From contig OZ037844.1 in NCBI GenBank assembly GCA_964035575.1, positions 806,001 through 870,000 on the forward strand: a DNA stretch of 64,000 bases, written 5' to 3'. The DNA is from Rhynchopus sp. YZ270_cl-10. Its lineage: Eukaryota. This document shows, one piece after another, positions 16,427 to 60,911 of this stretch. The stretch's first letter is position 1; each line of letters begins with the position of its first letter. The position numbers and the translations under genes were made by a program. The notes beneath the pieces were generated by a model that worked only from the letters and a program-made list of their open reading frames with translations, did no database searches and had not been told where the DNA came from.

Positions 16427-19400
16427 AATACAAAACCCTCTCGTGAACAGTGTAGATTGGTATACAAATGAGACCGGCTGTACCGGGGGTGGATACCCAC
16501 TATGCAGTCCTACATCCATTTTGTGGTTTACATCTGAAAAAAAGGGGGGTGGAGGTTAATATGATGAATCGAGTGCGGCAACATGTCCAGCAGTAAAGCA
16601 GGCTAGTGGAGGTCATGTTCGCATAGAAAAAGAACGTTTTCGTCTGAAGGGCAGAAATAAGCGAGTGCACAAAGGGGGAGAGGGAATAAAAAGTCTAAGG
16701 CACTTTGGGCCATCTCTGATCATCTCCGTGAGACACACAACAGGCTGTGAGAGCTTGTGAGGTCCTGTTCGTGAATGATGGGTTTGCTGTTGGTGGGTCT
16801 GCTTACACCGTGCTCGAGAGCACCTGCACCACACTTGTACGTTGTTTGCGCCTCGCAGCGGACAACGCAGTCTCACCGGCCCTCGTCTTGTGGTTCACGT
16901 CCACCTCAGGCAAGCCCACAAGATAGCGCACAGTCTCGGTACGTCCGAAATATGCCGCAAGGAAAAGACACGTGCGCCCGTCGTTGTCTGTGACACACAG
17001 TCCCGCACCTGCTTCGACCAACATCGTCACAAGTTCTAGTTCCCCTACCTCACAAGCACAAGCATGGTGAAGAGGTGAACGTCCCTCCTCGTCCTTTGCT
17101 TCGATGTCTGCACCTGCATCAATCAGCACCTGCACCACACTTGAGTGCTTCTTGAACACAGCGGTGTGCAGTGCAGTCCATGTGTTGTCAGCTGACTGAT
17201 TCACATCCACCTCAGGCATGCACAGAAGAGCACGTGCAGTCTCGGTGTGTCCAAAACGAACTGCATGCATAAGACATGTGTCTCCGTCATTGTCTGTGAC
17301 ACACACTTCCGCACCTGCTTTGACTAACACCTTCACCACATCGAGTGCCCCTTCCTGGCTGGCCAAGAGCACAGGCGATTCTTCATTCACGCCTTTCACC
17401 TCGATGTCTGCACCTGCATCAATGAGCACCTTCACCACTTCGGGATGGTTTTCTTGAGCTGCAAAGTGCAACGCAGTGAAGTTGTCCTCTTCTGAGTGAT
17501 TCACATCCACCTCAGGCAAGCCAACAAGATAGCGCACAGTCTCGGTGTGTCCGAAATATGCCGCAAGGGTAAGACACGTGTCACCTTCGTTGTCTGCGAC
17601 ACACACTTCCGCACCTGCTTTGACCAACACCTTTAGAACACGGAGATTCCCAAACTCACTCGCCTGGAAGAGTGGGGAACGTCCGTTGTTGTGCTTTACC
17701 TCAATGTCAGCCCCTGCATCAATGAGTACCTCCGCCACTTCAGGATGGTTTTCTTGAGCTGCAATGTGCAACGCAGTGAGGCTGTCATCCCCTGAGTGAT
17801 TCACATCCACCTCAGGCACGGTTACAAGATAGCGCACAGTCTCGGTGTGTCCGAAAGATGCCGCAAGGGTAAGACATGTGCCTCCTTCAGTGTCTGTGAC
17901 ACATACTTGCGCACCTGCTTTGACCAACATCTTCACAATGGCGAAGTTTCCTAAAATACTCGCCCTGTGCAGAGGTGAACGTCCTTCCTTATCCTTTACC
18001 TCGATGTCTGCACCTGCATCAATGAGCACCTGACACACTGCAGGGTCCTCCCACATGGCTGGACACGGTCTATTACCTTTGCTACGTAACTCTAACCCAT
18101 GTGGGACAAACGCAACGTCGCTGCAGACTGACTTCCAATGCTGCAAGAGGACCTCCGTGCACGCAGTGTGGTCTGCGTGGATGCACTCACTCAGCAGCAT
18201 CCCGAAGCCCATCTGCGTTGTCTCAACATACGGAAGAAGCAGTGCGAGGCATTCATCGTGGTTCCCTCTGCATGCCTCGTGCACAGCATCGAAGGCAACC
18301 GTTTTGCTGTCTGTGTCTGGGCCGAGCTTCTCAAGTCCCGCCCGCACGGCAGTCGTGTCGCCGTTCCTGGCAGCCTCCACCAAGACCTCGTCTGCAGAAA
18401 GTGTGGTGCTGTTTGATGCCTTCTCGTCAGGTGTGCTGTCTGCATGTTGCTCCTTTGACATGGTTTGTGAAGATGTTGATATTCAATGTTGTGTCTTTTA
18501 TGATGTTTCTTTTTGTGGAGGTTGTGAGGTGAGTGGTGGGTAATACTTGGGTAATACCTGTTTTTCTGCCTTGGCGTGACTGTGTAGAAGTGCTCCAAAC
18601 ACTCCACTCTGGGTGCCAATTGAGGTGTATGGGGAGAGGGAGGGGGAGGAAAAGAGGAAAGGTTGCTTCTGTCTGTATCGACGTTTGTCTATGTTCTGTT
18701 TCTGGATATTGCTTTTTTTCTTGGCGAGGAGAGAAGGTGTTCCTCGATCAGACGGAGAAAAAGAAAGAGGAGTTGAAACGTACTCAAACAACTCGGTCGT
18801 ACTCATGCTGGGTTAGGGTGGGACGTTCGAGCGTTCCGTACCGGGACGCAGGCACTGACACTCCGTGGGTTATCGAACCCCGGAGTGTTGCGCTTGGGAG
18901 TGGTTTACAGGGAAGCTGTAAGCAGGTAATCAGTCATTACCCCACCCTGCCCGGGAAGGGGGGACAACATGATTTAATACAAAAGCCCTCTCGTGAACAG
19001 TGTAGATTGGTACAAATGAGACCGGCTGTACCGGGGGTGGGTACCCACTATGCAGTCCTACATCCATTTTGTGGTTTACATCTGAAAAAAAGGGGGGTGG
19101 AGGTTAATATGATGAATCGAGTGCGGCAACATGTCCAGCAGTAAAGCAGGCTAGTGGAGGTCATGTTCGCATAGAAAAAGAACGTTTTCGTCTGAAGGGC
19201 AGAAATAAGCGAGTGCACAAAGGGGGAGAGGGAATAAAAAGTCTAAGGCACTTTGGGCCATCTCTGATCATCTCCGTGAGACACACAACAGGCTGTGAGA
19301 GCTTGTGAGGTCCTGTTCGTGAATGATGGGTTTGCTGTTGGTGGGTCTGCTTACACCGTGCTCGAGAGCACCTGCACCACACTTGTACGTTGTTTGCGCC

Positions 19401-20120
19401 TCGCAGCGGACAACGCAGTCTCACCGGCCCTCGTCTTGTGGTTCACGTCTACCTCAGGCAAGCCCACAAGATAGCGCACAGTCTCGATGTGTCCGAAATA
19501 TGCCGCAAGGAAAAGACACGTGCGCCCGTCGTTGTCTGTGACACACAGTCCCGCACCTGCTTCGACCAACATCTTCACAAGTTCTAGTTCCCCTACCTCA
19601 CAAGCACAAGCATGGTGAATAGGTGAACGTCCCTTGTCTTCCTTTGCCTCGATGTCTGCACCTGCATCAATCAGCACCTGCACCACACTTGAGTGCTTCT
19701 CCAACACAGCGGTGTGCAGTGCAGTCCAGGCGTCGCCAGCTGACTGATTCACATCCACCTCAGGCATGCACAGAAGAGCACGTGCAGTCTCGGTGTGTCC
19801 AAAACGAACTGCATGCATAAGACATGTGTCTCCGTCATTGTCTGTGACACACACTTCCGCACCTGCTTTGACTAACACCTTCACCACATCGAGTGCCCCT
19901 TCCTGGCTGGCCAAGAGCACAGGCGATTCTTCATTCACGCCTTTCACCTCGATGTCTGCCCCTGCATCAATGAGCACCTTCACCACTTCAGGATGGTTTT
20001 CTTGAGCTGCAAAGTGCAACGCAGTGAAGTTGTCATCTTCTGAGTGATTCACATCCACCTCAGGCAAGCCAACAAGATAGCGCACAGTCTCGGTGTGTCC
20101 AAAATATGCCGCAAGGATAA
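16427..20120. repeat. Tandem duplication: about 16427-17575 is near-identical to about 18976-20120 (offset about 2548)
   Basis: The 3' coding halves and 3' flanks of ANK1 and ANK2 match almost base for base. Confidence 0.9.
16803..18461 (-). CDS. Ankyrin-repeat family paralogue 1 (552 aa, 4 triplet modules)
   Basis: Shared constant N-terminus followed by repeated SPL/TCL/TALH ankyrin triplets. Confidence 0.9.
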   Translation of the reverse strand: MSKEQHADSTPDEKASNSTTLSADEVLVEAARNGDTTAVRAGLEKLGPDTDSKTVAFDAVHEACRGNHDECLALLLPYVETTQMGFGMLLSECIHADHTACTEVLLQHWKSVCSDVAFVPHGLELRSKGNRPCPAMWEDPAVCQVLIDAGADIEVKDKEGRSPLHRASILGNFAIVKMLVKAGAQVCVTDTEGGTCLTLAASFGHTETVRYLVTVPEVDVNHSGDDSLTALHIAAQENHPEVAEVLIDAGADIEVKHNNGRSPLFQASEFGNLRVLKVLVKAGAEVCVADNEGDTCLTLAAYFGHTETVRYLVGLPEVDVNHSEEDNFTALHFAAQENHPEVVKVLIDAGADIEVKGVNEESPVLLASQEGALDVVKVLVKAGAEVCVTDNDGDTCLMHAVRFGHTETARALLCMPEVDVNQSADNTWTALHTAVFKKHSSVVQVLIDAGADIEAKDEEGRSPLHHACACEVGELELVTMLVEAGAGLCVTDNDGRTCLFLAAYFGRTETVRYLVGLPEVDVNHKTRAGETALSAARRKQRTSVVQVLSSTV

Positions 20121-20697
20121 GACACGTGTCTCCTTCGTTGTCTGTAGTACGCACACCCGCACCTGCTTCAATCAACATCTTCACAACTGCGAACTTGCCT
20201 GAAATACTTGCCATGTGCAGAGGTGAACGTCCCCTGTCGTCCTTTGTCTCGATGTCTGCCCCTGCATCAATGAGCACCTGACACACTGCAGGGTCCTCCC
20301 ACATGGCTGGACAGGGTCGGTCTGCTTCTTCCTCCTGCCCGTGTGGGACAAACGCAACGTTGCTGCAGACTGACTTCCAATGCTGCAAGAGGACCTCCGT
20401 GCACGCAGTGTGGTCTGCGTGGATGCACTCACTCAGCAGCATCCCGAAGCCCATCTGCGTTGTCTCAACATACGGAAGAAGCAGTGCGAGGCATTCATCG
20501 TGGTTCCCTCTGCATGCCTCGTGCACAGCATCAAAGGAAACCGTTTTGCTGTCTGTGTCTGGGCCGAGCTTCTCAAGTCCCGCCCGCACGGCAGTCGTGT
20601 CGCCGTTCCTGGCAGCCTCCACCAAGACCTCGTCTGCAGAAAGCTTTCTTCTCTTTGGTGCCTTCTCTGCAGTGCTGTCTGTGTGTCGCTTCGACAT
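19351..20697 (-). CDS. Ankyrin-repeat family paralogue 2 (448 aa, 3 triplets)
   Basis: Start set at MSKRH by homology with the other paralogues (AAACCATG context). Confidence 0.9.
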   Translation of the reverse strand: MSKRHTDSTAEKAPKRRKLSADEVLVEAARNGDTTAVRAGLEKLGPDTDSKTVSFDAVHEACRGNHDECLALLLPYVETTQMGFGMLLSECIHADHTACTEVLLQHWKSVCSNVAFVPHGQEEEADRPCPAMWEDPAVCQVLIDAGADIETKDDRGRSPLHMASISGKFAVVKMLIEAGAGVRTTDNEGDTCLILAAYFGHTETVRYLVGLPEVDVNHSEDDNFTALHFAAQENHPEVVKVLIDAGADIEVKGVNEESPVLLASQEGALDVVKVLVKAGAEVCVTDNDGDTCLMHAVRFGHTETARALLCMPEVDVNQSAGDAWTALHTAVLEKHSSVVQVLIDAGADIEAKEDKGRSPIHHACACEVGELELVKMLVEAGAGLCVTDNDGRTCLFLAAYFGHIETVRYLVGLPEVDVNHKTRAGETALSAARRKQRTSVVQVLSSTV

Positions 20698-21183
20698 GGT
20701 TTGTGTGTCGTCTCTGTGTCTTTCTTTGGTGTTGAGGAGGGATGTCAAAAAGTTTTTGGAAAAATGAAGGATGGATACCACAGGTACTGTTGATTCTAAA
20801 AAACGGGGGGGGTAAAAATCGCGAATAGAAAAATGGCGAAAAGGTTGAAATGTTGGAACGCTTCATCACACTAAAATACAAAGGTTTGGGTTTTGAATGG
20901 GGTGGGTTCTTCTTCAGACGATGAAAAAACCTTCTTCTTTCTTCTTCTTTTTGCTCTTCCTATTTTATTTTTATTTTTTTGAAAAGTACAAAAACTTATC
21001 TCAAAATAGTTCAAGATCGAACAGAGAGAAAGAAGAAACCCGAAACCCTCTAAGACCAAATGGTCTAACCTGAAGTATTGATATAGCGTGGGGGAGAAGT
21101 GAGGAGGGCGAGAATCGTCTTCGTGAAGACTAAAATATTTCAGTGAAGTGGAGCCCCTGGTATTTGACTGATTCGCGTCCACC

Positions 21184-24100
21184 TCAGGCATGCACAGAAG
21201 AGTACGCACAGTCTCGGTGTGATTTGCTGTGGATGGGTCTGCTGCTGGTGGGTTTGCTGTTGGTGGGTTTGCTGTTGGTGGGTTTGCTGTTGGTGGGTTT
21301 GCTGTTGGTGGGTTTACTGTTGGTGGATGTGCTGTGGATGGGTCTGCTGCTGGTGGGTTTGCTGCTGGTGGGTTTGCTGTTGGTGGATGTGCTGTGGATG
21401 GGTTTGCTGCTGGTGGGTTTGCTGTTGGTGGGTTTGCTGCTGGTGGGTTTGCTGCTGGTGGGTTTGCTGTTGGTGGGTTTACTGTTGGTGGATGTGCTGT
21501 GGATGGGTTTGCTGTTGGTGGGTTTGCTGTTGGTGGGTTTGCTGCTGGTGGGTTTGCTGTTGGTGGGTTTGCTGTTGGTGGGTTTACTGTTGGTGGATGT
21601 GCTGTGGATGGGTTTGCTGCTGGTGGGTTTGCTGTTGGTGGGTTTGCTGTTGGTGGGTTTGCTGTTGGTGGATGTGCTGTGGATGGGTTTGCTGCTGGTG
21701 GGTTTGCTGTTGGTGGGTTTGCTGTTGGTGGGTTTACTGTTGGTGGATGTGCTGTGGATGGGTCTGCTGCTGGTGGGTTTGCTGTTTGTGGGTTTACTGT
21801 TGATGGGTCTGCTGTTGGTGGGTCTGCTGCGCACACCGTGCTTGAGTAGAACCTGCACCACACCTGCATGGTGTTCGTACCTCGCAACGGACAACGCAGT
21901 GTAACCAGCCCTCGTCTTGTGGTTCACATCCACACCCTTCAAACCCACAAGATAGCGCACAGTCTCGATGTGTCCAAATAGGGCGGCAATCATAAGGCAT
22001 GTGTATCCTCGCTTTTCTGTGGCGCACACGTTCGCCCCTACTTTGACCAACATCTTCACAACTGCGAGTGCCCCAGCACCACAAGCAATGTGCAGAAACG
22101 AAAATCCGTTTTCGTCCTTTGTCTCGATGTCTGCCCCTGCATCAAGCAACAAGTGCACAAGATAGCTCATAATCTCGGTTTGTCTACAACAAGCCGCAAG
22201 GAAAAGACACGTGCGCCCGTCGTTGTCTGTGACACACAGTCCCGCACCTGCTTCGACCAACATCGTCACAAGTTCTAGTTCCCCTACCTCACAAGCATGG
22301 TGAATAGGTGAACGTCCCTTGTATCCCTTTGCCTCGATGTCTGCACCTGCATCAATCAGCACCTGCACCACACTTGAGTGCTTCTCCAACACAGCGGTGT
22401 GCAGTGCAGTCCAGGCGTCGCCAGCTGACTGATTCACATCCACCTCAGGCATGCACAGAAGAGCACGCACAGTCTCGGTGTGTCCAAAACGAACTGCATG
22501 CATAAGACATGTGTCTCCTTTGTGGTTTGTGACACACACTCCCGCACCTGCTTTGACTAACACCTTCACAGCATCGAGTGCCCCTTCCTGGCTGGCTAAG
22601 AGCACAGGCGATTCTCCATTCTCGTTCTTTGCCTCGATGTCTGCACCTGCATCAATGAGCACCTCCACTACTTCAGAATAGTTTTCTTGAGCTGCAAAGT
22701 GCAACGCAGTGAAGTCCTCAGCATCCTTGTGATTCACGTCCACCTCACGCAAACTCACAAGATAACGCACAGTCTCGGTGTGTCCAAAATATGACGCAAG
22801 TGTAAGACATGTGTCTCCTTCGTTGTCTGTAGTACGCACTCTTGCACCTGCTTTGACCAACATCTTCACAGTGTCGAGAGACCCGTTCTTGCTGGCCACA
22901 CTCAGGGGCGAATATCCATGCACGTCCTTTGCCTCGATGTCTGCCCCTGCATCGATGAGCACCTTCACCACATCGATGTGTCTTTCGCTCGCTGCACAGT
23001 GCAACGCAGTGTAGCCGTTGTTCTCTGAGTAATTCATGTCCACCTCCGGCAAGCCCACAAGATAGCGCACAGTCTCGGTGTGTCCATTCCATGCCGCCAG
23101 GGTAAGACACGTGTCTCCTACGTCCGCACCTGCTTTGACCAACACCTTCACAGTGCCCAGTGCCCCTGCCTTGCTTGCCATGAGCAGAGGTGAACACCCC
23201 TCCTTGTCCTTTGTCTCGATGTCCGTCCCTGCATCAATCATCAAGTTCACAAGATAGCGCACAATCTCAGTATGCCCATTGGCTCCCGCAAGGAAAAGAC
23301 ACGTGCGCCCGTCGTTGTCTGTGACACACAGTCCCGCACCTGCTTCGACCAACATCTTCACAAGTTCTAGTTCCCCTACCCCACAAGCATAGTGAAGAGG
23401 TGAACGTCCCTTGTCTCCTTTTGCCTCGATGTCTGCACCTGCATCAATCAGCACCTGCACTACACTTGAGTGCTTCTCCAACACAGCGGTGTGCAGTGCA
23501 GTCCAGGCGTCGCCAGCTGACTGATTCACATCCACCTCCTTCAAGCCCACAAGATAGCGCACAGTCTCGGTGTGTCCATTAGCAGCCGCAGATAAAAGAC
23601 ATGTGTCTCCTTTGTTGTCCGCACCTGCTTTGACCAACACCTTCACAGCATCGAGTGCCCCTTCCCTGCAAGCACAGTGCACAGGTGAAGATCCGTCCTC
23701 GTCCTTTGCCTCGATGTCTGCCCCTGCATCAATGAGCACCTCCACCACTTCAGGATAGTTTTCTTGAGCTGCAAAGTGCAACGCAGTCAAGTTGTCATCT
23801 TCTGAGTGATTTACATCCACCTGCGGCACGCTCACAAGATAGCGCACAGTCTCGGTGTGTCCAAAATACGCCGCAAGGGTAAGACACGTGTCTCCTTCGT
23901 TGTCTGTAGTACGCACTCCCGCACCTGCTTTGACCAACATCTTCACAACTGCGAACTTGCCTGAAATACTCGCCCTGAGCAGAGGTGAACGTCCCCTCTC
24001 GTCCTTTGTCTCGATGTCTGCCCCTGCATCAATGAGCACCTGAAACACTGCAGGGTCCTCCCACATGGCTGGACACGGTATCTCATCGTCGCTGTCTTCC

Positions 24101-24465
24101 CCTATCCGGTGTGGGACAAAGGCGACGTTGCTGCAGACTGACTTCCAATGCTGCAAGAGGACCTCCGTGCACGCAGTGTGGTCTGCGTGGATGCACTCAC
24201 TCAGCAGCATCCCGAAACCCATCTGCGTTGTCTCAACATACGGAAGAAGCAGTGCGAGGCATTCATCGTGGTTCCCTCTGCATGCCTCATGCACAGCATC
24301 GAAGGCAACCGTTTTGCTGTCTGTGTCTGGGCTGAGCTTCTCAAGTCCTGTCCGCACGGCCGTCGTATCGCCGTTCCTGGCAGCCTCCACCAAGACCTCG
24401 TCGCCAAGATTTCTTCTCTTTGGTGCCTCATTCTCTGCAGTGCTGTCTGTGTGCTGCTTTGACAT
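21184..24465 (-). CDS. Ankyrin-repeat family paralogue 3 (1093 aa, 8 modules plus S/T/K/P-rich minisatellite tail)
   Basis: Start at MSKQH by homology. Ankyrin array followed by (SKPTN)n. Confidence 0.88.
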   Translation of the reverse strand: MSKQHTDSTAENEAPKRRNLGDEVLVEAARNGDTTAVRTGLEKLSPDTDSKTVAFDAVHEACRGNHDECLALLLPYVETTQMGFGMLLSECIHADHTACTEVLLQHWKSVCSNVAFVPHRIGEDSDDEIPCPAMWEDPAVFQVLIDAGADIETKDERGRSPLLRASISGKFAVVKMLVKAGAGVRTTDNEGDTCLTLAAYFGHTETVRYLVSVPQVDVNHSEDDNLTALHFAAQENYPEVVEVLIDAGADIEAKDEDGSSPVHCACREGALDAVKVLVKAGADNKGDTCLLSAAANGHTETVRYLVGLKEVDVNQSAGDAWTALHTAVLEKHSSVVQVLIDAGADIEAKGDKGRSPLHYACGVGELELVKMLVEAGAGLCVTDNDGRTCLFLAGANGHTEIVRYLVNLMIDAGTDIETKDKEGCSPLLMASKAGALGTVKVLVKAGADVGDTCLTLAAWNGHTETVRYLVGLPEVDMNYSENNGYTALHCAASERHIDVVKVLIDAGADIEAKDVHGYSPLSVASKNGSLDTVKMLVKAGARVRTTDNEGDTCLTLASYFGHTETVRYLVSLREVDVNHKDAEDFTALHFAAQENYSEVVEVLIDAGADIEAKNENGESPVLLASQEGALDAVKVLVKAGAGVCVTNHKGDTCLMHAVRFGHTETVRALLCMPEVDVNQSAGDAWTALHTAVLEKHSSVVQVLIDAGADIEAKGYKGRSPIHHACEVGELELVTMLVEAGAGLCVTDNDGRTCLFLAACCRQTEIMSYLVHLLLDAGADIETKDENGFSFLHIACGAGALAVVKMLVKVGANVCATEKRGYTCLMIAALFGHIETVRYLVGLKGVDVNHKTRAGYTALSVARYEHHAGVVQVLLKHGVRSRPTNSRPINSKPTNSKPTSSRPIHSTSTNSKPTNSKPTNSKPTSSKPIHSTSTNSKPTNSKPTNSKPTSSKPIHSTSTNSKPTNSKPTNSKPTSSKPTNSKPTNSKPIHSTSTNSKPTNSKPTSSKPTSSKPTNSKPTSSKPIHSTSTNSKPTSSKPTSSRPIHSTSTNSKPTNSKPTNSKPTNSKPTNSKPTSSRPIHSKSHRDCAYSSVHA
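21222..21828. repeat. 15-bp coding minisatellite (GGTGGGTTTGCTGTT and variants), about 40 units
   Basis: Directly visible, with higher-order patterning of variant units. Confidence 0.95.
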
Positions 24466-30787: not shown

Positions 30788-33361
30788 TCAGGAAAGTTGT
30801 ATTTCCATTGGTGTCACCTCAGACGCGTTTGGATAGAGAAGAACCTGCGCCACACGATGTCCATGTCTACGTGATGCGACGTGCAACGCAGTCTCGCCCC
30901 CATTAGCTGCGTGATGCACATCCACCTCCGGCAAGCCCACAAGATAGCTCATAATCTCGGTGTGTCCAAAATATGATGCAAGCATGAGACACGTGTTTCC
31001 TACGCTGTCTGTGGTGCGAACTTCGGCACCTGCTTTGACCAACAGCTTCACAATTGCTATTTTCCTGCTCTCACAAGCCACGAGCAAAGGCGAACGACCC
31101 AAGCTGTTCTTTGCCTCAAGGTCTGCCCCTGCATCAACGAGCGCCTGCACCACAGCGGGATGTCCTTTCTTCTTGCCTTCCCAGTGCAACGCAGTCATCC
31201 CGTTCTCATCTGCGTGATTCACGTCCACCCCCGGCAAACCCGCAATATAGCGCAGCGTCTCGGTGCGTCCATAATATGACGCTATGTGAAGACATGTGGA
31301 CCCTTCGTTATCTGTAGCACGCACTTCGGCACCTGCTTTGACCAACATCTTCACAACTGCGATGTTCCCGTTCAGGCAAGCCGTGTGCAGAGGCGACCGC
31401 CCTTTGTCATCCGTTACCTCGATGTCTGCCCCTGCATCAATGAGCAGCTCCACCACGTCTGCAAAAACCTTATGTGACGCAATGTACAGTGCAGTGTCAC
31501 CCCCACTACCTCTGTGATTCACGTCCACCTCAGGTAAAGCAACAAGATAACGTACAGTCTCAGTGTGTCCAAAGTTTGCCGCAAGGATAAGACACGTGTC
31601 TCCTTCGTTGTCTGTGACACGCACTCCTGCACCTGCTTTCACCAACACCTTTATAATCGCAAGTTCCCCGTTCTCACTTGCCAAGTGCAGAGCCGAACGC
31701 CCAATGTTGTTCTTGGCCTCGATATCTGCCCCTGCATCAATGAGCACCTGCAATGCATGGGGATTATGTGTACAGACCAAAGCAGTCTTGCCTAGATTAT
31801 TTTTGCGATTCACGTCCACCTCTGGCAAGCCAAGAAGATAGCGCACAGTCTCAGTGTGTCCAAAAGCAGCCGCAAGGATAAGACACGTGTCACCATCCTG
31901 TCCTATGGCACGCACTTCCGCACCTGCTTTGACCAACAGCTTCACAATATCGAGATGACCTGAGCTACTTGCAAACAGCAGAGGTGAACATCCGTCCTCG
32001 TCTTTTGCCTCGATATCTGCCCCTGCATCGATGAGCACCTCCACCACAGCTGCATGCTTATGCTCCACTGCAGCGTGCAACACAGACAAGCAGTCGTCAG
32101 CTTTGTGATTCACATCCACATCCTTCAGGCCAACAAGATAGCGCACAGTCTCGGTACGTCCAAAATATGCCGCAAGTGTAAGACATGTGTCTCCTTCGTT
32201 GTCTGTGGCACGAACTTCCACACCTGCTTTGACCAACATCTTCACAATTGCTAGTGATCCTGAACGACAAGCAAAGTGCAGGGACGAATGCCCCATGTGG
32301 TCCTTTGCCTCGATATCTGCCCCTGCATCGATGAGCACCTCCACCACAGCTGCATGTTTATGCTCTACTGCAGCGTGCAACGCAGAACAGCGCTCGTCAG
32401 CTTTGCGATTCACATCCACATCCTTCAGGCCAACAAGATAGCGCACAGTTTCGGTGTGTCCACGAGCAGCCGTAGAGAAAAGACATGTGTCTCCATTGCG
32501 GCCCTTGACACACACCTTTGCACCTGCTTTGACCAACATCTTCACAACTGCGAGTGATCCTGAACGACAAGCCAAGTGCAGGGACGAACGCCCCATGTGG
32601 TCCTTTGCCTCGATATCTGCCCCTGCATCAATGAGCACCTCCACCACAGCTGCATGCTTATGCTCCACTGCAGCGTGCAACGCAGACAAGCAGTCGTCAA
32701 CTTTGCGATTCACATCCACATCCTTCAGGCTAACAAGATAGCGCACAGTTTCGGTGTGTCCATGAGCAGCCGTTGATAAAAGACACGTGTCTCCTTCGTG
32801 GTCCGTGACACACACACCCGCACCTGCTTTGACCAACATCTTCACAACTGCGAGTGCTCCTGAACGGCAAGCCAACTGTAGGGACGAACGCCCCAGGTCA
32901 TCCTTTGTCTCGATGTCTGCCCCTGCATCAATGAACACCTGACACACTGCAGGGTCCTCCCACATGGCTGGACAGGGTTGGTCTGCTTCTTCCTCCTGCC
33001 CATGTGGGACAAACGCAACGTTGCTGCAGACTGACTTCCAATGCTGCAAGAGGACCTCCGTGCACGCAGTGTGGTCTGCGTGGATGCACTCACTCAGCAG
33101 CATCCCGAAGCCCATCTGCGTTGTCTCAACGTACGGAAGAAGCAGTGCGAGGCATTCATCGTGGTTCCCTCTGCATGCCTCGTGCACAGCATCGAAGGCA
33201 ACCGTTTTGCTGTCTGTGTCTGGTCTGAGCTTCTCAAGTCCCGCCCGCACGGCAGTCGTGTCGCCGTTCCTGGCAGCCTCCACCAAGACCTCGTCTGCAG
33301 AAATCTTTCTTCTCTTTGGTGCCTTCTCGTCAGGTGTGCTGTCTGCGTGTCGCTTCGACAT
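30788..33361 (-). CDS. Ankyrin-repeat family paralogue 4 (857 aa, 7 triplets)
   Basis: Constant N-terminus. Exact 300-bp periodicity is visible at 32041, 32341 and 32641. Confidence 0.92.
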   Translation of the reverse strand: MSKRHADSTPDEKAPKRRKISADEVLVEAARNGDTTAVRAGLEKLRPDTDSKTVAFDAVHEACRGNHDECLALLLPYVETTQMGFGMLLSECIHADHTACTEVLLQHWKSVCSNVAFVPHGQEEEADQPCPAMWEDPAVCQVFIDAGADIETKDDLGRSSLQLACRSGALAVVKMLVKAGAGVCVTDHEGDTCLLSTAAHGHTETVRYLVSLKDVDVNRKVDDCLSALHAAVEHKHAAVVEVLIDAGADIEAKDHMGRSSLHLACRSGSLAVVKMLVKAGAKVCVKGRNGDTCLFSTAARGHTETVRYLVGLKDVDVNRKADERCSALHAAVEHKHAAVVEVLIDAGADIEAKDHMGHSSLHFACRSGSLAIVKMLVKAGVEVRATDNEGDTCLTLAAYFGRTETVRYLVGLKDVDVNHKADDCLSVLHAAVEHKHAAVVEVLIDAGADIEAKDEDGCSPLLFASSSGHLDIVKLLVKAGAEVRAIGQDGDTCLILAAAFGHTETVRYLLGLPEVDVNRKNNLGKTALVCTHNPHALQVLIDAGADIEAKNNIGRSALHLASENGELAIIKVLVKAGAGVRVTDNEGDTCLILAANFGHTETVRYLVALPEVDVNHRGSGGDTALYIASHKVFADVVELLIDAGADIEVTDDKGRSPLHTACLNGNIAVVKMLVKAGAEVRATDNEGSTCLHIASYYGRTETLRYIAGLPGVDVNHADENGMTALHWEGKKKGHPAVVQALVDAGADLEAKNSLGRSPLLVACESRKIAIVKLLVKAGAEVRTTDSVGNTCLMLASYFGHTEIMSYLVGLPEVDVHHAANGGETALHVASRRHGHRVAQVLLYPNASEVTPMEIQLS

Positions 33362-34985: not shown

Positions 34986-37523
34986 TCACAGTCCTTTGCC
35001 TTCATCTTTGCGTTGTGCCTTTTTCAAACTTTCGATCTCCTCCTTCATCTCCTCCGCAAGCCGCTTACTCTCCTCTGCCATCTTCACGATGTGCTCGCTG
35101 CACTGCCTCACTGTCTCCCTCATCTCAGCACATTCCGCTCTGAGCTCTGCCATGCCGCCTTGTTCCGGCTGCTCCGAGACCGGCGCCGTCTGCTGTGTCG
35201 GCCCCAGCACCCCCTTCTGTGCCTCCAACATCTCCTTCTGCTGGTCCATAACACTCTTCATCATTTCCTGCAGTGCTTTCATTTCCTCCTTCATCGCATT
35301 GCCTTGCTCCAGCGCTGCTTCCAGTGCAGTGTTCCCCAACTTGTCTGTCTGCTTCACGTCCACTTCCGGCAGGTTCATAAGATAGCGCACAGTGTCGGTG
35401 TGCCCTTTAGCAGACGCAATGTCAATATACGTGTCGCCTTCGTTTTGTGCGACACGCACATCCGCACCTGCTTTGACCAACATCTTCACAATTGCCATAT
35501 TCCCGTTCTCGCTAGCCACGTGCAGAGGCGTACGACCCATTTCGTCCTTTGCCTCGATGTCTGCCCCTGCAGCAATGAGCACCTGCACCACATCGACATG
35601 TCCTTCGTCCACCGCACTGTGCAACGCAGTGAAGTCTTTCTCATCTGCAATATTCACATCCACCTCAGGCAAGCCCACAAGATAGCGCACAGTCTCCGTG
35701 CGTCCATTGGCAGCCGTAAGGGAAAGACACGTGTCACCTTTGTTGTCTGTGACACACACATCCGCACCTGCTTTGACCAACACCTTCACAATATCGAGCT
35801 TGCCTCGTTTCCAAGCCCAGAACAGAGGGGAACGTCCCATGTTGTTCTTTGCGTCGATGTCTGCCCCTGCATCAATGAGCACCTGCACCACATCTACATG
35901 TCCTTTGTCCACGGCACTGTGCAACGCAGTGTATCCTTTATCATCTGCAATATTCACATCCACATCCTTCAAGCCCACAAGATAGCGCACAGTCTCCGTA
36001 CGTCCCTTAGCAGACACAATGTGAAGACATGTGCCTCCTGTGTTGTCAGTGGCACATACTTTCGCACCTGCTTTGATCAACAACTTCACTATGCCGAGCT
36101 CGCGTACGCCACTAGCGTAGTGTAGAGGCGAACGTCCCATCTCGTCCTTCACCTCGATGTCTGCCCCTGCATCAATGAGCACCTGCATGAAATCAGGATC
36201 GCTTCCCCAGAAGGATATGGCGTGGAACACCACACTGCAGCCGTCACGCATTTCATTCACATCCACCTGTGGCAAGGCTGCAAGGTAGCGCACCGTCTCA
36301 GTGTGTTTTTTAATCACTGCGAGCTTGAGACAGCCTGCGTCAGCAACTGCGCCTGCTTCGACCAACATCTTCACACGCAAGAGATCGCCACACATGCTCG
36401 CTTTTTCCAGAAGTGAATATCCCCTCTCGTCCTCTACCTCGATGTCTGCCCCTGCATCAACGAGCACCTTCACCACATCTGTACGCTGACGGCGTAGTGC
36501 AGTGAGCAATGCAGAGCGGCGCCCGTTATTGTAGTTCACATCCACCTCCTCCAAGCCCGCAAGGTAGCGCACAGTCTCAGTGTGCTCACTAGTAGACGCA
36601 ACGATAAGACACGTGTCATCTAGATTGTCCGTGGCACGCACACTTGCACCTGCTTCGACCAACATCTTCACAATGTCGAGCTCGCCTAAAGCACTGGCCA
36701 CGTGCAGAGGCGTACGACCCCACTGGCTCTTTGTCTCGATGTATGCCCCTGCATCAATGAGCACCTGCACCACATCTAGGTGTCCTCCGTGCACCGCACT
36801 GTGTAACGCTATGGGGTATTTTCCTTCGCATACGTCCCAATTAGAGCTTTCTTTATTCACATCCACCTGCGGCAAGCCAACAAGATAGCGCACAGTCTCG
36901 GTACGTCCAAAATAGGCCGCAAGCATAAGACACGTGTTACCTTTGTTGTCTGTGGTGCACACTTCCGCACCTGCTTCAACCAACATCTTCACAACTGCGA
37001 GTGCTCCTGATAGACTGCTCATCTTGAGCAGAGGTGAACGTCCCCTCTCATCCTTTACCTCGATGCCTGCCCCTGCATCAATGAGCACCTGACACACTGC
37101 AGGGTCCTCCCACATGGCTGGACAGGGATGAGATGTCTGACCTTCGCAGCCATCCATGTGCCCGTGTGGAACAAACGCAACGTTGCTGCAGACTGACTTC
37201 CAATGCCGCAAGAGGACCTCCGTGCACGCAGTGTGGTCTGCGTGGATGCACTCACTCAGCAGCATCCCGAAACCCATCTGCGTTGTCTCAACATACGGAA
37301 GAAGCAGTGCGAGGCATTCATCGTGGTTCCCTCTGCATGCCTCGTGCACAGCATCGAACGAAACTGTTTTGCTGTCTGTGTCTGGTCTGAGCTTCTCAAG
37401 TCCCTCCAGCACGGCAGTCGTGTCGCCGTTCCTGGCAGCCTCCACCAAGACCTCGTCTGCAGAAAACTTTCTTCTCTTTGGTGCCTTCTTGTCAGGTGTG
37501 CTGTCTGCGTGTCGCTTCGACAT
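34986..37523 (-). CDS. Ankyrin-repeat family paralogue 5 (845 aa, 6 triplets plus C-terminal coiled coil)
   Basis: Constant N-terminus, ankyrin array and E/K/M-rich heptad-like tail. Confidence 0.92.
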   Translation of the reverse strand: MSKRHADSTPDKKAPKRRKFSADEVLVEAARNGDTTAVLEGLEKLRPDTDSKTVSFDAVHEACRGNHDECLALLLPYVETTQMGFGMLLSECIHADHTACTEVLLRHWKSVCSNVAFVPHGHMDGCEGQTSHPCPAMWEDPAVCQVLIDAGAGIEVKDERGRSPLLKMSSLSGALAVVKMLVEAGAEVCTTDNKGNTCLMLAAYFGRTETVRYLVGLPQVDVNKESSNWDVCEGKYPIALHSAVHGGHLDVVQVLIDAGAYIETKSQWGRTPLHVASALGELDIVKMLVEAGASVRATDNLDDTCLIVASTSEHTETVRYLAGLEEVDVNYNNGRRSALLTALRRQRTDVVKVLVDAGADIEVEDERGYSLLEKASMCGDLLRVKMLVEAGAVADAGCLKLAVIKKHTETVRYLAALPQVDVNEMRDGCSVVFHAISFWGSDPDFMQVLIDAGADIEVKDEMGRSPLHYASGVRELGIVKLLIKAGAKVCATDNTGGTCLHIVSAKGRTETVRYLVGLKDVDVNIADDKGYTALHSAVDKGHVDVVQVLIDAGADIDAKNNMGRSPLFWAWKRGKLDIVKVLVKAGADVCVTDNKGDTCLSLTAANGRTETVRYLVGLPEVDVNIADEKDFTALHSAVDEGHVDVVQVLIAAGADIEAKDEMGRTPLHVASENGNMAIVKMLVKAGADVRVAQNEGDTYIDIASAKGHTDTVRYLMNLPEVDVKQTDKLGNTALEAALEQGNAMKEEMKALQEMMKSVMDQQKEMLEAQKGVLGPTQQTAPVSEQPEQGGMAELRAECAEMRETVRQCSEHIVKMAEESKRLAEEMKEEIESLKKAQRKDEGKGL

Positions 37524-52445: not shown

Positions 52446-52533
52446 CGCCCTGCACTGCGCTTCCTGCCGGCACTCCACCTCGGGGGTGATATCAAAAGAA
52501 CACAAAAAAAGAGGGAAAACGAGAGAGAAGAAG

Positions 52534-52711
52534 AGGGCAGGGGAGAGGTGTAACGGTACGTTCTATAGGGCAGGGGAGAGGTGTAACGGTACGTTCTATA
52601 GGGCAGGGGAGAGGTGTAACGGTACGTTCTATAGGGCAGGGGAGAGGTGTAACGGTACGTTCTATAGGGCAGGGGAGAGGTGTAACGGTACGTTCTATAG
52701 GGCAGGGGAGA
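52534..52711. repeat. 33-bp minisatellite, about 5.4 copies (AGGGCAGGGGAGAGGTGTAACGGTACGTTCTAT)
   Basis: Perfect head-to-tail copies with no spacers. Confidence 0.95.
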
Positions 52712-53075: not shown

Positions 53076-54473
53076 TTAGTTTTTGTTTGCAGGTTTCTTC
53101 CGCTTGCGGACTTCATTGGATGCTTCGTCTCGTCTCCGTTTCGGACGGGCCCCCACAACACTCAGCCCAGCCTTTTTCACAGCTTTCGACACAACAGCGC
53201 TGCACCCAGAGAGCTGGATGCTCTGCAAGCTTGGCAACCGGAAGAAGTCTTTCCCGATGTGCGTAACGCCGCTCAATGCAGAAAGGTCCAGCTCGGTTAA
53301 ACCGCTGCATCCATACAGAAAGTCGTCCCCAATCTGCGTCAGATTGTTGAGCGAAGACAAATCGAGCGACGTTACCCCGGCAGACTCGCAGAGGAAGCAG
53401 TCCCCAACCTGCGTGAGGTTGCTGAGTGGGGACACATCCAGCGCTGGCAAATGGTTTTGATCGAGAAAGTGCGTCCCAACATGGGTAAGGCTGCTGAGCG
53501 GGGACAGGTCCAGAGCGGATAGAGATCTGCAGTAGGAGAGGAAGTAACCTTCGATGTGCGTGACGCTGGTGAGTGAATCCAGGTTGAGGTCTGTTAGACT
53601 TGTGCATCCGGAGAGAAAATGGGTCCCAATGCGCGTCAAACTGTTGAGCGAAGGCAAGGCTAACGCTGTCACAGCGCATTCGTATAGAAAGCAGTCACCA
53701 AGTTGGGTAAGATTGTTGAGCGGAGGCAAGGTGAGCGCCGTTAAATTGCGGGTCCCGTATAGGAAGGAACTCCCTATACTTGTAAGGCTGTTGAGTGAAG
53801 AGAAGTTGACGGTTGCCACGATTGTAGAGGTGAAGAAGAAGTCTCCAATGTGCATCAGGTTGGGTGCCGACAAGTTGAACGTTTTTAGGCTCCGATTTTC
53901 ATACAGAAAATATTCCCCGATGTGCGTAAGACTGTTGAGTGAAGTCATGTCGAGAGTAGTTAACCTCCCGCAGTTGCAGAGAAACCAGTCCCCTATGTGC
54001 GTCAGGTTAGTGAGTGAAGACAGGTTGAGGGCTGACAAGCCTCCGTCCATCAGGAAGCATTCCCCAATCCGCGTGACAGCCGAGACAGCACTGAGATCAA
54101 GTTGCGTCAACGATGCGCCCCCCAAGAAATCATTTGGAATCACAGTCGTCACCTCTGCCTGCAGAAGCAGACACGCGACCTCAGGATCCTTCACAGTGTC
54201 CAACCTCTCTGGCACCAGGTCTGTCTCACCCAACGCACGAAGCGCTTCTCTGGCCTCGAATTTCTTCGCCTTCGATAAGACAATAATATCTCCAGCACTC
54301 AGCTGTGTCATGTCCGCTCCTACACCCATCGCTTCGCCTCCGAAACTCATGCCAAAGCTGTCTTCTGGAAGCCCCACTGCAGACGCCACCTTCCTCCGCA
54401 TGTCCGTAGTTGTGTCAGCCAGAGCCACCTCGATTACATGCGTATCATCGAAGGCCTCTACGATAATATCCAT
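53076..54473 (-). CDS. Ubiquitin-like domain plus leucine-rich repeat (BspA-like) protein with basic C-terminal NLS-like tail (465 aa)
   Basis: Ubl-like N-terminus MDIIVEAF..MRRKVASAVGLP. About 25-aa repeats LxxLdLssLxxLTxIGxxFLxxC. Tail RPKRRR..RKRKK. Confidence 0.85.
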   Translation of the reverse strand: MDIIVEAFDDTHVIEVALADTTTDMRRKVASAVGLPEDSFGMSFGGEAMGVGADMTQLSAGDIIVLSKAKKFEAREALRALGETDLVPERLDTVKDPEVACLLLQAEVTTVIPNDFLGGASLTQLDLSAVSAVTRIGECFLMDGGLSALNLSSLTNLTHIGDWFLCNCGRLTTLDMTSLNSLTHIGEYFLYENRSLKTFNLSAPNLMHIGDFFFTSTIVATVNFSSLNSLTSIGSSFLYGTRNLTALTLPPLNNLTQLGDCFLYECAVTALALPSLNSLTRIGTHFLSGCTSLTDLNLDSLTSVTHIEGYFLSYCRSLSALDLSPLSSLTHVGTHFLDQNHLPALDVSPLSNLTQVGDCFLCESAGVTSLDLSSLNNLTQIGDDFLYGCSGLTELDLSALSGVTHIGKDFFRLPSLQSIQLSGCSAVVSKAVKKAGLSVVGARPKRRRDEASNEVRKRKKPANKN

Positions 54474-58068: not shown

Positions 58069-59163
58069 CTAACTGGCATCGGTGTCAGTATCAGTGTCAT
58101 CACATTCAGCACCAACGTCTGCCCCTGCATCAATGAGCAACTTCGACACATCTGAGTGCTTCATTGACACTGCGTAGTGCAGTGGAGTTAAGCCGCTGTT
58201 ATTTGACTGATTCATATCCACCTCAGGCATGCACAGAAGAGTGCGCACAGTCTCGGTGTGTCCACAGTACGCTGCGTACACAAGACATGTGTCTCCTATG
58301 TTGTCTGTGACGCACACTTCCGCACCTGCTTTGACCAACAACTTCACAGCATCGAGTGACCCTTCCCTACAAGCACGGTGCAAAGGTGAAGATCCATCCT
58401 CGTCCTTTGCCTCGATGTCTGCACCTGCATCAATGAGCACCTCCACCGCTTCAGTATAGTTTTCTTGAGCTGCAAAGTGCAACGCAGTGAAGTTCTCATC
58501 TTCTGAGTGATGCACATCCACCTCAGGCACGGTCACAAGATAGCGCACAGTCTCGGTGCGTCCGAAACATGCCGCAAGCGTAAGACATGTGCCTCCTTCG
58601 TTGTCTGTGACACACACTCCCGCACCTGCTTTGACCAACATCTTCACAACTGTGATCGTGCCTGAAATGCTCGCCCTAAGCATAGGTGAACGTCCATCCT
58701 CATCCTTTGTCTCGATGTCTGCCCCTGCATCAATGAGCACCTGAAACACTGCAGGGTCCTCCCACATGGCTGGACAGGGACGAGGTGCATTACCTTGGAC
58801 CTGCCCGTGTGGAACAAACGCAACGTTGCTGCAGACTGACTTCCAATGCTGCAAGAGGACCTCCGTGCACGCAGTGTGGTCTGCGTGGACGCACTCACTC
58901 AGCAGCATCCCGAAGCCCATCTGCGTTGTCTCAACATACGGAAGAAGCAGTGCGAGGCATTCATCGTGGTTCCCTCTGCATGCCTCGTGCACAGCATCGA
59001 AGGAAACCGTTTTGCTGTCTGTGTCTGGGCTGAGCTTCTCAAGTCCCGCCCGCACAGCAGTCGTGTCGCCGTTCCTGGCAGCCTCCACCAAGACCTCGTC
59101 TGCAGAAAGCTTTCTTCCCTTTGGTGCCTTCTCTGCAGTGCTGTCTGCGTGTCGCTTCGACAT
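58069..59163 (-). CDS. Ankyrin-repeat family paralogue 7 (364 aa, 2 triplets)
   Basis: Constant N-terminus plus ankyrin repeats. Confidence 0.88.
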   Translation of the reverse strand: MSKRHADSTAEKAPKGRKLSADEVLVEAARNGDTTAVRAGLEKLSPDTDSKTVSFDAVHEACRGNHDECLALLLPYVETTQMGFGMLLSECVHADHTACTEVLLQHWKSVCSNVAFVPHGQVQGNAPRPCPAMWEDPAVFQVLIDAGADIETKDEDGRSPMLRASISGTITVVKMLVKAGAGVCVTDNEGGTCLTLAACFGRTETVRYLVTVPEVDVHHSEDENFTALHFAAQENYTEAVEVLIDAGADIEAKDEDGSSPLHRACREGSLDAVKLLVKAGAEVCVTDNIGDTCLVYAAYCGHTETVRTLLCMPEVDMNQSNNSGLTPLHYAVSMKHSDVSKLLIDAGADVGAECDDTDTDTDAS

Positions 59164-59852
59164 GGTTTGTGTGTGGTCTCTGTATCTTGCGTGGTGTGGC
59201 CTTTTTGAGGTGGGTGATGCACACCCTATTCGATTCTACGGCAGGGCAATGCATTGTGGGGGTTGAATAAACACAGTTTTTTTCTCTATTCTTTTTCAAA
59301 TCTCATTCTATTCATACAAAAGGCTAGATATTCGCATTGCTGAACGTACATTTCTCTCCTATTTTTCTCCCCATCTGAACCCCACCCCCATCCCCTCCCT
59401 CCTCCTTTCCCCTTCACCCATCCACACAGATGAAGTGCATGCCGTTTACCTTCATGAACCCAGACAGAACGGAGGTGCCCACAACTGCGCCAGATATTGA
59501 AGTTGCAGTACTACAAGCTCCGCCAGAACCTGTACCGGCACGTAGACGGAAGCACGGCCCAATGCGAAATACTCTCATGAGAAAATCGGGGCCTGCGGTG
59601 GGTTCGTAGTGGTGTTGGCGCAAGAAAGATTGCACTCGTGATGGGGCGATGGTGAAGCAGCTGAGGCCAGACGACCGCCACAGTGGGATGAGCAACACCA
59701 TCCACAAATACGATGCCTTCAGTGGTAGCCTCTCTCGTGGTCGTGCGCTGTGGGAAGCAAAGACTCTCTCTCGAACACAGCGGTGTGAAGTGGAGTCCAG
59801 GCGTCGCTAACTGGCATCGGTGTCAGTATCAGTGTCATCATCAGTGCCATCA

Positions 59853-60911
59853 TCAATCAACCTCTGCCCCTGCATCAATGAGCAACTTCGACACATCTGA
59901 GTGCTTCCTTGACACTGCACGGCGCAGTGGAGTGAGGCCACTGTTATTTGACTGATTCACATCCACCTCAGGCATGCACAGAAGAGCACGCACAGTCTCG
60001 GTGTGCCCCCAGTACACTGCGTACATAAGACATGTGTCTCCTATGTTTTCTGTGACACACACTCTCGCACCTGCTTTGACCAACAACTTCACAGCATCGA
60101 GTGCCCCTTCCCTGCAGGCACGGTGCAGAGGTGAAGATCCTTCCTCGTCCTTTGCCTCGATGTCTGCACCTGCATCAATGAGCACCTCCGCCACTTGAGG
60201 ATGGTTTTCTTGAGCTGCAAAGTGCAACGCAGTGAGGTTGTCCTCTTCTGAGTGATTCACATCCACCTCAGGCAAACTCACAAGATAACGCACAGTCTCG
60301 GTGTGTCCGAAATATGCCGCAAGCGTAAGACACGTGTCTCCTTCGTTGTCTGTAGTACGCACTCTTGCACCTGCTTCAACCAACATCTTCACAACTGCGA
60401 ACTTTCCTGAAGGACTCGCCCTAAGCAGAGGTGAACGTCCCCTCTCGTCCTTTGTCTCGATGTCTGCCCCTGCATCAATGAGCACCTGACACACTGCAGG
60501 GTCCGCCCACATGGCTGGACACGGTCTATTACCTTTGCTATCTTCCGCTAACCCATGTGGGACAAACGCAACGTTGCTGCAGACTGACTTCCAATGTTGC
60601 AAGAGGACCTCCGTGCACGCAGTGTGGTCTGCGTGGACGCACTCACTCAGCAGCATCCCGAAGCCCATCTGCGTTGTCTCAACATACGGAAGAAGCAGTG
60701 CGAAGCATTCATCGTGGTTCCCTCTGCATGCCTCGTGCACAGCATCGAAGGAAACCGTTTTGCTGTCTGTGTGTGAGCTGAGCATCTCAAGTCCCGCCCG
60801 CACGGCAGTCGTGTCGCCGTTCCTGGCAGCCTCCACCAAGACCTCGTCTGCAGAAATCTTTCTTCTCTTTGGTGCCTTCTCTGCAGTGCTGTCTGTGTGT
60901 CGCTTCCCCAT
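59853..60911 (-). CDS. Ankyrin-repeat family paralogue 8 (352 aa, 2 triplets)
   Basis: Constant N-terminus plus ankyrin repeats. Confidence 0.88.
   Translation of the reverse strand: MGKRHTDSTAEKAPKRRKISADEVLVEAARNGDTTAVRAGLEMLSSHTDSKTVSFDAVHEACRGNHDECFALLLPYVETTQMGFGMLLSECVHADHTACTEVLLQHWKSVCSNVAFVPHGLAEDSKGNRPCPAMWADPAVCQVLIDAGADIETKDERGRSPLLRASPSGKFAVVKMLVEAGARVRTTDNEGDTCLTLAAYFGHTETVRYLVSLPEVDVNHSEEDNLTALHFAAQENHPQVAEVLIDAGADIEAKDEEGSSPLHRACREGALDAVKLLVKAGARVCVTENIGDTCLMYAVYWGHTETVRALLCMPEVDVNQSNNSGLTPLRRAVSRKHSDVSKLLIDAGAEVD

What the first reader, a model, noticed from the sequence alone, without database searches (positions are those of the whole stretch)
16980..60240. Ankyrin modules are mosaics exchanged between paralogues
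Seen: the block ESPVLLASQEGALD..MHAVRFGHTET..WTALHTAV..GRTCLFLA occurs in ANK1, ANK2 and ANK3. AGDAWTALHTAVLEKHSS is in ANK2 and twice in ANK3. SSPLHRACREG is in ANK6, ANK7 and ANK8. GRSPLLVAC is in ANK4 and ANK6. ANK5 and ANK6 have near-identical flanks and tails but different internal modules. A conserved DNA block (TCGATGTCTGC(A/C)CCTGCATCAATGAGCACCT) recurs in nearly every module. Inference: unequal crossover or gene conversion anchored on that block.
Basis: partly seen in the sequence, partly recalled or inferred. Interest (0 to 1): 0.7.

Follow-up and report, generated by a model that had tools for sequence, protein, structure and literature searches.

The report
Recombining ankyrin-repeat library in a diplonemid
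Eight neighbouring ankyrin-repeat genes, part of a family of hundreds in what is likely a marine diplonemid protist, are patchworks of DNA pieces swapped between copies at many points inside the repeats, which likely keeps a constant scaffold while reshuffling the predicted binding surface into a large set of different binders whose targets are untested.

Summary
Eight intronless ankyrin genes (- strand, 16803-60911) share a 98-codon N-cap and carry 39 three-repeat, ~100-aa modules. Mosaicism is confirmed: 19 of 39 modules give a recombination statistic of 30 or more, against at most 1 in each of 50 non-recombining simulations. N-cap and module trees reject each other. ANK2 carries a clean ANK3-type conversion patch on an ANK1 backbone. 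The 'anchored on one block' idea fails: 7 of 9 robust window breakpoints and 53 of 62 family-wide lie elsewhere, and a second framework stretch is equally conserved at silent sites. The family has at least 288 members; 20 relatives scanned show no ATPase or effector domain. Variation concentrates on the ankyrin groove (dN/dS about 1 against 0.5; above 1 not shown). Host likely a diplonemid other than D. papillatum. Short contigs could not bridge junctions, so local assembly error is unlikely but not excluded. Known process (fungal HIC-NLR repeat exchange); effector-less ankyrin variant not found in my searches. The scan noted similar shuffling in a giant-virus family.

The parts
16803..18461 (-). 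ANK1: N-cap + 4 three-repeat modules (552 aa); no basic N-terminal cluster
   Evidence: AlphaFold model mean pLDDT 86.7, all-helical repeat solenoid
19351..20697 (-). ANK2: N-cap + 3 modules; four-part mosaic (ANK4-like N-cap end, ANK3-like start of module 1, ANK1-like body, ANK3-like patch)
21184..24465 (-). ANK3: N-cap + 8 modules (two are 70-aa truncated; internal duplication m2-m3/m6-m7), then a tail encoded by a 15-bp repeat array
30788..33361 (-). ANK4: N-cap 97.4% identical to ANK2's, but module 1 only 76%; 7 modules, m1-m3 locally triplicated (86-90%)
34986..37523 (-). ANK5: N-cap + 6 modules + charged helical tail shared with ANK6
38957..41761 (-). ANK6: N-cap + 7 modules + tail; m1-m2 start related to ANK7/8, back end related to ANK5
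58069..59163 (-). ANK7: N-cap + 2 modules; tandem pair with ANK8 (91% over 1.5 kb)
59853..60911 (-). ANK8: N-cap + 2 modules
19620..19736 (-). Minimal gene-conversion tract in ANK2. Of 12 ANK1/ANK2 differences in 19588-19978, 11 lie here and all 11 equal the ANK3 base. The tract contains a block copy (19649-19679); its ends lie outside it
   Evidence: (ends bounded by 19783 and 19501)
20107..20131 (-). Strongest breakpoint: ANK2 module 1 switches from ANK3-like (35 of 36 informative sites) to ANK1-module-2-like (47 of 51) at module nt 147-171, p 9e-17
32128..32217 (-). Short foreign insert in ANK4 module 3, between breakpoints at module nt 122 and 208-211
   Evidence: p 7.8e-8 and 1.6e-9
23536..23539 (-). 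Breakpoint in ANK3 module 2 (module nt 216-219) into the ANK3m6/ANK2m2-type third repeat
   Evidence: p 7.6e-8
58502..58523 (-). Breakpoint in ANK7 module 1 (module nt 218-239), ANK1m1-like to ANK6m1-like
   Evidence: p 1e-8
17101..60487 (+). Span holding the 36 copies of the 31-nt block, one at the start of 36 of 39 modules; coding sequence of the outer helix-turn of every third repeat, not a stand-alone element
16463..17582 (-). ANK1 3' part and downstream flank, near-identical to 19011-20130 (ANK2): recent tandem duplication or long conversion
21111..21221 (-). Out-of-frame remnant of an ANK7/8-type module behind the 15-bp repeat array of ANK3

Best explanation
These genes are recombinant patchworks within a family of hundreds of ankyrin-only genes, and the patchwork likely arises by ordinary homology-driven ectopic recombination (gene conversion plus unequal crossover) between misaligned 300-bp modules at any conserved framework stretch, which likely homogenises the scaffold while re-assorting a hypervariable, predicted binding groove. 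Shown: mosaic tracts of about 30-400 nt, breakpoints spread through the module, module gains and losses, incongruent trees, silent-site homogeneity of framework and N-cap, and amino-acid hypervariability at loop and inner-helix positions. Inferred: the repair pathway, that the 300-bp three-repeat period sets the register and keeps the frame, and that selection for varied binding specificity (intracellular, often nuclear, recognition of foreign or fast-evolving partners) maintains the variety.
For: 19 of 39 modules reach a triplet chi-square of 30 or more (max 63.6), against at most 1 of 39 in each of 50 non-recombining simulations (max 40.0). 9 of 36 donor switches stay significant after correction for cut points and about 1,500 donor pairs. 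ANK2 patch: 11 of 11 clustered differences from ANK1 match ANK3. AU tests reject all six cross-partition trees for N-cap, module 1 and module 2 (p 0.049 to 6e-6). Among 92 family genes, the 122 of 4186 pairs with N-cap at least 95% identical have modules no closer than random pairs (0.64, 0.56, 0.57 against 0.62, 0.56, 0.57). 62 breakpoints in 37 of 122 genes, spread over all zones. N-cap silent divergence pS 0.071 while upstream flanks align over only 12-191 of 300 nt; module pS 0.36. Codon choice is position-fixed (Asp GAT 38 of 38 at module position 4, GAC 32 of 36 at position 8), so not general codon bias. 17 of 20 hypervariable positions fall in the hairpin loops and inner helix or its end turn. 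dN/dS is 1.30 [0.82-1.96] at 18 DARPin-type positions (numbering recalled) against 0.48 [0.37-0.63] at the other 76. Silent divergence at conserved residues rises next to hypervariable codons (0.45 against 0.19; 28 of 10000 permutations). 78 of 120 family proteins have a basic cluster resembling a nuclear localisation signal near the start.
Against: PHI over all 39 modules is not significant (119 of 2000 permutations; third positions 844 of 2000). dN/dS at groove positions is not significantly above 1 and falls to 0.84-1.02 among close pairs, so relaxed constraint fits as well. A four-combination test on common segment types found 0 of 150. The protein set is clustered at 90% identity, which removes concordant near-duplicates and inflates discordance; only 120 of 288 hits were in hand. 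The N-cap and module-1 trees have low bootstrap support and four AU p-values are marginal (0.014-0.049). The neighbour effect on silent sites could come from multi-nucleotide or context-dependent mutation. No contig bridged a junction with 31 letters on both sides. Function and expression are untested.
Confidence: 0.72

Rival explanations
1. Neutral birth-and-death: the same recombination runs as a by-product of tandem repeats, and groove positions vary only because they are unconstrained; there is no selected repertoire.
For: dN/dS intervals at groove positions include 1. Truncated modules, a module remnant and odd tails are present. The region is repeat-rich, with a hAT-like transposase gene nearby.
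Against: All eight genes keep long open frames and fold as intact solenoids. N-cap pN 0.026 against pS 0.071 and framework dN/dS 0.48 show purifying selection. Silent diversity tracks the groove.
Confidence: 0.3
2. Block-anchored or site-specific exchange: the 31-nt block is a recombination signal at which whole modules are swapped.
For: The block is in 36 of 39 modules and has low silent divergence. 2 of 9 robust breakpoints are there. Family breakpoint weight in the block is 0.12 against 0.05 in the null. The ANK2 tract spans a block, so initiation there with resolution at a distance is not excluded.
Against: 7 of 9 and 53 of 62 breakpoints lie elsewhere. The first family run gave 0.08 against 0.11. 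Framework 2 is equally conserved at silent sites. All 36 copies are inside coding modules.
Confidence: 0.08
3. Assembly or polishing artefact: reads from paralogues were mixed into chimeric consensus sequences.
For: A family of hundreds of similar copies; short patches are what mis-mapped polishing can make. No contig bridges a junction.
Against: Most tracts differ from their best donor by 1-7%. Frames are intact. The contig is 2.7 Mb. Contigs of public runs match module-specific stretches without a difference (e.g. 23759-23859 in X2, 19754-19867 in X3). The flank shared by ANK1 and ANK2 has about twice the per-contig depth of ANK2's unique flank in X1 (228 and 217 against 99) and X2 (136 against 73); X1 or X2 may be the window's own source. 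Mosaicism recurs across family proteins from many contigs.
Confidence: 0.06
4. Duplication and internal deletion only, with convergence under selection mimicking mosaics.
For: ANK1/ANK2/ANK3 module order is colinear, ANK5/ANK6 back ends are colinear, and ANK4 m1-m3 are local triplicates.
Against: Simulations with site-specific base frequencies and rates do not reach the observed statistics. An internal conversion patch with ANK1 sequence on both sides cannot come from one deletion.
Confidence: 0.04

Closest known systems
Fungal NLRs with high-internal-conservation (HIC) repeats (HNWD/het-e WD40; TPR and ANK NLRs of Podospora; PMC13449251, passages and sections 11-12 read)
   Same: Internally conserved repeats with a few hypervariable positions, gain, loss and shuffling of repeats, and exchange between paralogues attributed to unequal crossover and ectopic conversion.
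   Different: No NACHT/NB-ARC or cell-death effector domain here. The unit is a three-repeat 100-aa supermodule, mean module identity is lower (57% aa family-wide), tracts are sub-module, and the family has hundreds of genes. That paper found its three ANK-repeat NLR genes well separated, without exchange.
Bodo saltans virus ankyrin expansion (148 genes; PMC5871332, passages read)
   Same: Large tandem, same-direction ankyrin arrays with variable repeat number and recent duplications, read as an arms-race accordion in a euglenozoan host-virus system.
   Different: This window is cellular (50% GC, eukaryotic neighbours with a diplonemid best named hit). No viral-gene fragments were seen at the N-terminus by Pfam. 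Homology to the BsV genes was not tested.
Wolbachia ANK genes WD0766/WD0550 (PMC3287509, passages read)
   Same: Variable ankyrin repeat number by duplication and loss.
   Different: There the order is mostly conserved, with one clear shuffle among orthologues; here exchange between paralogues is pervasive.
DARPin libraries (PMC8683736, passages read; position numbers recalled, not in those passages)
   Same: Constant capped framework with variable surface positions; 12 of 18 DARPin-type positions are among the 20 most variable here.
   Different: DARPins are engineered; binding by these natural proteins is untested.
Diplonemid ankyrin orthogroup OG0000001 (PMC10161547 supplement file 5, rows read)
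   Same: Listed under diplonemid expansions: 393 members in D. papillatum, 585 in R. humris.
   Different: A broad catch-all orthogroup. 'Ankyrin repeat' has 0 occurrences in the main text by the search listing. No named D. papillatum protein was among the 120 listed N-cap hits.

Membership tests
Ankyrin-repeat proteins | Tandem 33-aa helix-turn-helix repeats scoring above Pfam cut-offs | tested here: met
   PF12796 and PF00023 far above cut-off in the 4 of 8 genes scanned; model with paired helices, pLDDT 86.7
HIC-repeat NLR (HNWD-like) | Central NACHT or NB-ARC ATPase | tested here: not met
   None in 4 window ANK proteins, in the precomputed domains of 120 hits or in 20 more distant or longer relatives
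HIC-repeat NLR (HNWD-like) | N-terminal cell-death effector domain | tested here: not met
   The N-domain is helical repeats whose distant hits are ankyrin proteins
HIC-repeat NLR (HNWD-like) | High internal conservation of repeats (80-100% in HNWD; Psim at least 0.7) | tested here: inconclusive
   Modules average 71% nt in the window and 57% aa family-wide; some within-gene pairs reach 86-90%; T-REKS Psim not computed
HIC-repeat NLR (HNWD-like) | Repeat exchange between paralogues | tested here: met
HIC-repeat NLR (HNWD-like) | Hypervariable positions under positive selection | tested here: inconclusive
   Hypervariable yes; dN/dS 1.30 [0.82-1.96] over all pairs, 0.92-1.02 in close pairs
HIC-repeat NLR (HNWD-like) | Allele-length polymorphism between strains | tested here: inconclusive
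   Only short contigs; per-contig depth of the ANK1/2 shared flank is about 2x in X1 and X2 and about 1x in X4, a weak hint
Site-specific recombination cassette system | Breakpoints fixed at one motif | tested here: not met
Diversity-generating retroelement-type hypermutation | Adenine-biased variation at target codons | tested here: not met
   Non-majority fraction at hypervariable codons A 0.40, C 0.50, G 0.40, T 0.49; no reverse transcriptase among the 12 ORFs scanned
Immune or recognition repertoire | Binding of foreign ligands with a phenotype | not testable with these tools
   Needs experiments

The most novel reading that the evidence does not exclude
A free-living protist keeps a natural DARPin library: hundreds of effector-less ankyrin proteins with a homogenised cap, an on/off nuclear-targeting tip and a binding groove re-assorted by ongoing sub-repeat gene conversion. 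It acts as an evolving intracellular recognition repertoire against giant viruses, bacterial endosymbionts or mobile elements.
Probability: 0.3. Interest if true: 0.75.

Novelty: new variant of a known kind. Interest (0 to 1): 0.45.

Why it matters
Diplonemids are among the most abundant marine protists, and how they recognise viruses or symbionts is not known to me from the papers read. A large ankyrin family that recombines below the repeat level gives a concrete, testable candidate. It also extends HIC-type repeat exchange to ankyrin repeats without an NLR body. If the variation is merely neutral, it is an ordinary, well-resolved case of ectopic conversion in a tandem repeat-gene family.

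Tried and rejected
No whole genome is held, so DNA-level tests cover only the 8 window genes. PHI was not significant. The permutation p-values of the triplet scan hit their floor (5e-5) against 27,620 triplets, so they were replaced. The first family painting suggested a deficit of breakpoints in repeat 1 (37 breakpoints in 28 of 122 genes). With the N-cap junction, a looser site threshold and a chain-matched null it vanished, except for module aa 31-39; I do not claim it. Four-combination test: 0 of 150. Rows dropped: 5 database copies of window genes were replaced by the window's own; 46 of 438 modules outside 90-112 aa were left out; 92 genes had N-cap, m1, m2 and last module. No RNA holder was listed. 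Contigs of 4 of 9 listed runs were laid on two stretches: no piece bridged a junction with 31 letters on both sides, and 23461-23502 and 23587-23607 had no cover at 98%; holes prove nothing. The ESM Atlas and fold search did not complete. An adenine-biased mutator was rejected. Literature: searches found no paper on mosaic ankyrin genes in diplonemids (timed out); subscription journals and bioRxiv supplements are not covered and may hold one. Earlier findings near this place: none.
Full report
Setting. The window is eukaryotic, about 50% GC, with genes on the minus strand. A neighbouring ZIP transporter has Diplonema papillatum as best named hit at 70% and an unnamed transcriptome protein at 81%. 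The host is therefore likely a diplonemid other than D. papillatum (inference). No whole genome is held.

Anatomy. Eight intronless ankyrin genes (ANK1-8, 16803-60911) share an N-terminal domain of about 142 aa (86-97% nt) and carry 39 modules of about 100 aa, three repeats each; TRF sees the 300-bp period. A model of ANK1 from a 40-sequence alignment is a continuous helical-pair solenoid including the N-domain, which behaves as a degenerate ankyrin cap (mean pLDDT 86.7; distant hits are ankyrin proteins). The N-domain finds 288 proteins of 303-966 aa, most of the 120 listed on the window's own 2.7-Mb contig or a 584-kb contig. Only 31 representatives score at E up to 1e-10 among 1.84 billion, so the family is lineage-restricted. 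No ATPase, kinase or effector domain was found. 78 of 120 proteins have a basic cluster near the start, 32 lack it and 10 had no canonical start.

Observation check. Part of the evidence is only shared descent: ANK1m3, ANK2m2 and ANK3m6 are 92-98% identical and followed by the same next module, and ANK5 and ANK6 are colinear over their last four modules (79-97%). The ANK4/ANK6 motif joins modules at the background 71%.

Is it recombination? Yes. Copy-model painting splits most genes into tracts of about 30-400 nt with different donors. Of 36 donor switches tested, 9 survive correction for cut points and about 1,500 donor pairs. 19 of 39 modules exceed a triplet chi-square of 30, against at most 1 in each of 50 tree-like simulations, 25 of them with site-specific base frequencies. 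The clearest case: ANK1 and ANK2 are near-identical over 1.1 kb except for 11 clustered sites (19620-19736), at all of which ANK2 equals ANK3. ANK2 and ANK4 share a 97.4% N-domain but a 76% first module, while ANK2 and ANK3 show 88.8% and 94%. AU tests reject all six cross-partition trees, four only marginally. Family-wide, N-cap identity says almost nothing about module identity (Spearman 0.19, 0.17, 0.03), with the caveat that 90% clustering removes concordant twins. Against: PHI over all modules was not significant, and a four-combination test was empty.

Is it anchored on the block? Not in these data. Two of 9 robust window breakpoints touch it, and five lie at module nt 195-242. In 122 genes, 9 of 62 intervals touch it, against 21 of 221 in a uniform null; block weight is 0.12 against 0.05 in that run and 0.08 against 0.11 in an earlier one. 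The block encodes the best-conserved framework turn, and framework 2 is as invariant at silent sites (0.133 against 0.134; whole module 0.26). Initiation at the block with distant resolution is not excluded.

What is being shuffled. Twenty positions carry at least 2.5 bits of entropy; 17 are in the hairpin loops and inner helix or its end turn on the model's secondary structure. That is the usual ankyrin binding groove (established knowledge); 12 coincide with the 18 DARPin-type positions (numbering recalled; PMC8683736 passages confirm only that surface positions are randomised). dN/dS there is 1.30 [0.82-1.96] over all 741 pairs and 0.92-1.02 in the 30-55 closest pairs, against about 0.5 elsewhere: relaxed or diversifying, not proven positive. 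Silent differences at conserved residues are higher next to hypervariable codons (0.45, n=13) than away from them (0.19, n=18; 28 of 10000 within-residue permutations), and codons are fixed by position, not by general bias. The N-cap core has pS 0.071 although upstream flanks barely align and fall into two classes that cut across the coding trees. This pattern is expected if conversion homogenises cap and framework while old groove variants persist (inference); multi-nucleotide mutation is an alternative.

Artefact test. Nine runs were listed, none on record as RNA; four were laid. Their contigs match module-specific stretches exactly, and in X1 and X2 the flank shared by ANK1 and ANK2 has about twice the per-contig depth of a unique flank. 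No contig bridged a junction by the tool's criterion, and X1 or X2 may be the source sample. Local chimerism is unlikely but formally open.

Mechanism. Most likely (0.72): misalignment of 300-bp modules within and between tandem paralogues, followed by homologous repair, gives conversion patches, crossovers and module gain or loss, always in register and in frame. Shown: mosaics, dispersed breakpoints, homogenised framework, variable groove. Inferred: the pathway, and selection for a binding repertoire (about even odds against neutral drift of unconstrained sites).

Comparison. It works like fungal HIC-repeat NLR sensors (PMC13449251: passages, sections 11 and 12), but it fails membership: no ATPase, no effector. 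That paper saw no exchange among its three ANK NLRs. The Bodo saltans virus accordion (PMC5871332, passages) and Wolbachia ANK genes (PMC3287509, passages) are looser analogues. An ankyrin orthogroup is listed as expanded in diplonemids (PMC10161547, supplement file 5 rows). Seven answered searches found no description of mosaic ankyrin genes in this lineage. An earlier scan note (e1-5625318, unchecked) reached a similar 'ordinary shuffling' verdict for a giant-virus repeat family.

Verdict. The feature is real and the mosaicism confirmed; the anchor hypothesis is not supported. The process is known, and the effector-less, DARPin-like, several-hundred-member form is a new variant. Interest 0.45.

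Noticed in passing
window 53076-54473 (-): 465-aa protein with a weak ubiquitin-like N-terminus (aa 10-55), BspA-type LRRs and a basic C-terminal cluster; possibly a member of a second variable-repeat family.
   Followed up: partly
window 21223-21829: 15-bp array of 40.5 copies, in frame with ANK3, giving a Pro/Thr/Asn/Ser/Lys-rich tail; it abuts an out-of-frame ankyrin module remnant at 21111-21221.
   Followed up: partly
window 18843-19085: Intergenic stretch with very high summed contig depth and loose ends at both edges in the runs laid, likely a dispersed high-copy element; part is copied at 16427-16572 and weakly at 1411-1508.
   Followed up: partly
window 7583-9763 (-): DUF659 (hAT-transposase-like, by recall) ORF of 726 aa flanked by short tandem arrays.
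   Followed up: no
window 48510-48836 and 52534-52711: Perfect tandem arrays: 8-bp unit x 40.9 and 33-bp unit x 5.4, 100% matches, suggesting recent expansion.
   Followed up: no
proteins P0001-P0013: Family members with about 390 aa before the first module; P0006 matches the N-cap in three stretches, so the cap itself can be tandemly multiplied.
   Followed up: partly
window 18461 upward and the upstream flanks of the other ANK genes: Two 5' flank classes: ANK1/4/5/6 share about 77 nt; ANK2/3/7/8 share about 32-48 nt; the classes do not follow N-cap similarity.
   Followed up: partly
window 34986-35282 and 38957-39235 (-): ANK5 and ANK6 end in a shared charged, helix-like tail of about 100 aa (coiled-coil by eye, not tested).
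   Followed up: no
window 1654-5370 (-): 1238-aa protein with a signal-like start, PA domain, cysteine-rich segments and a C-terminal hydrophobic stretch; only one relative (30%) found.
   Followed up: partly
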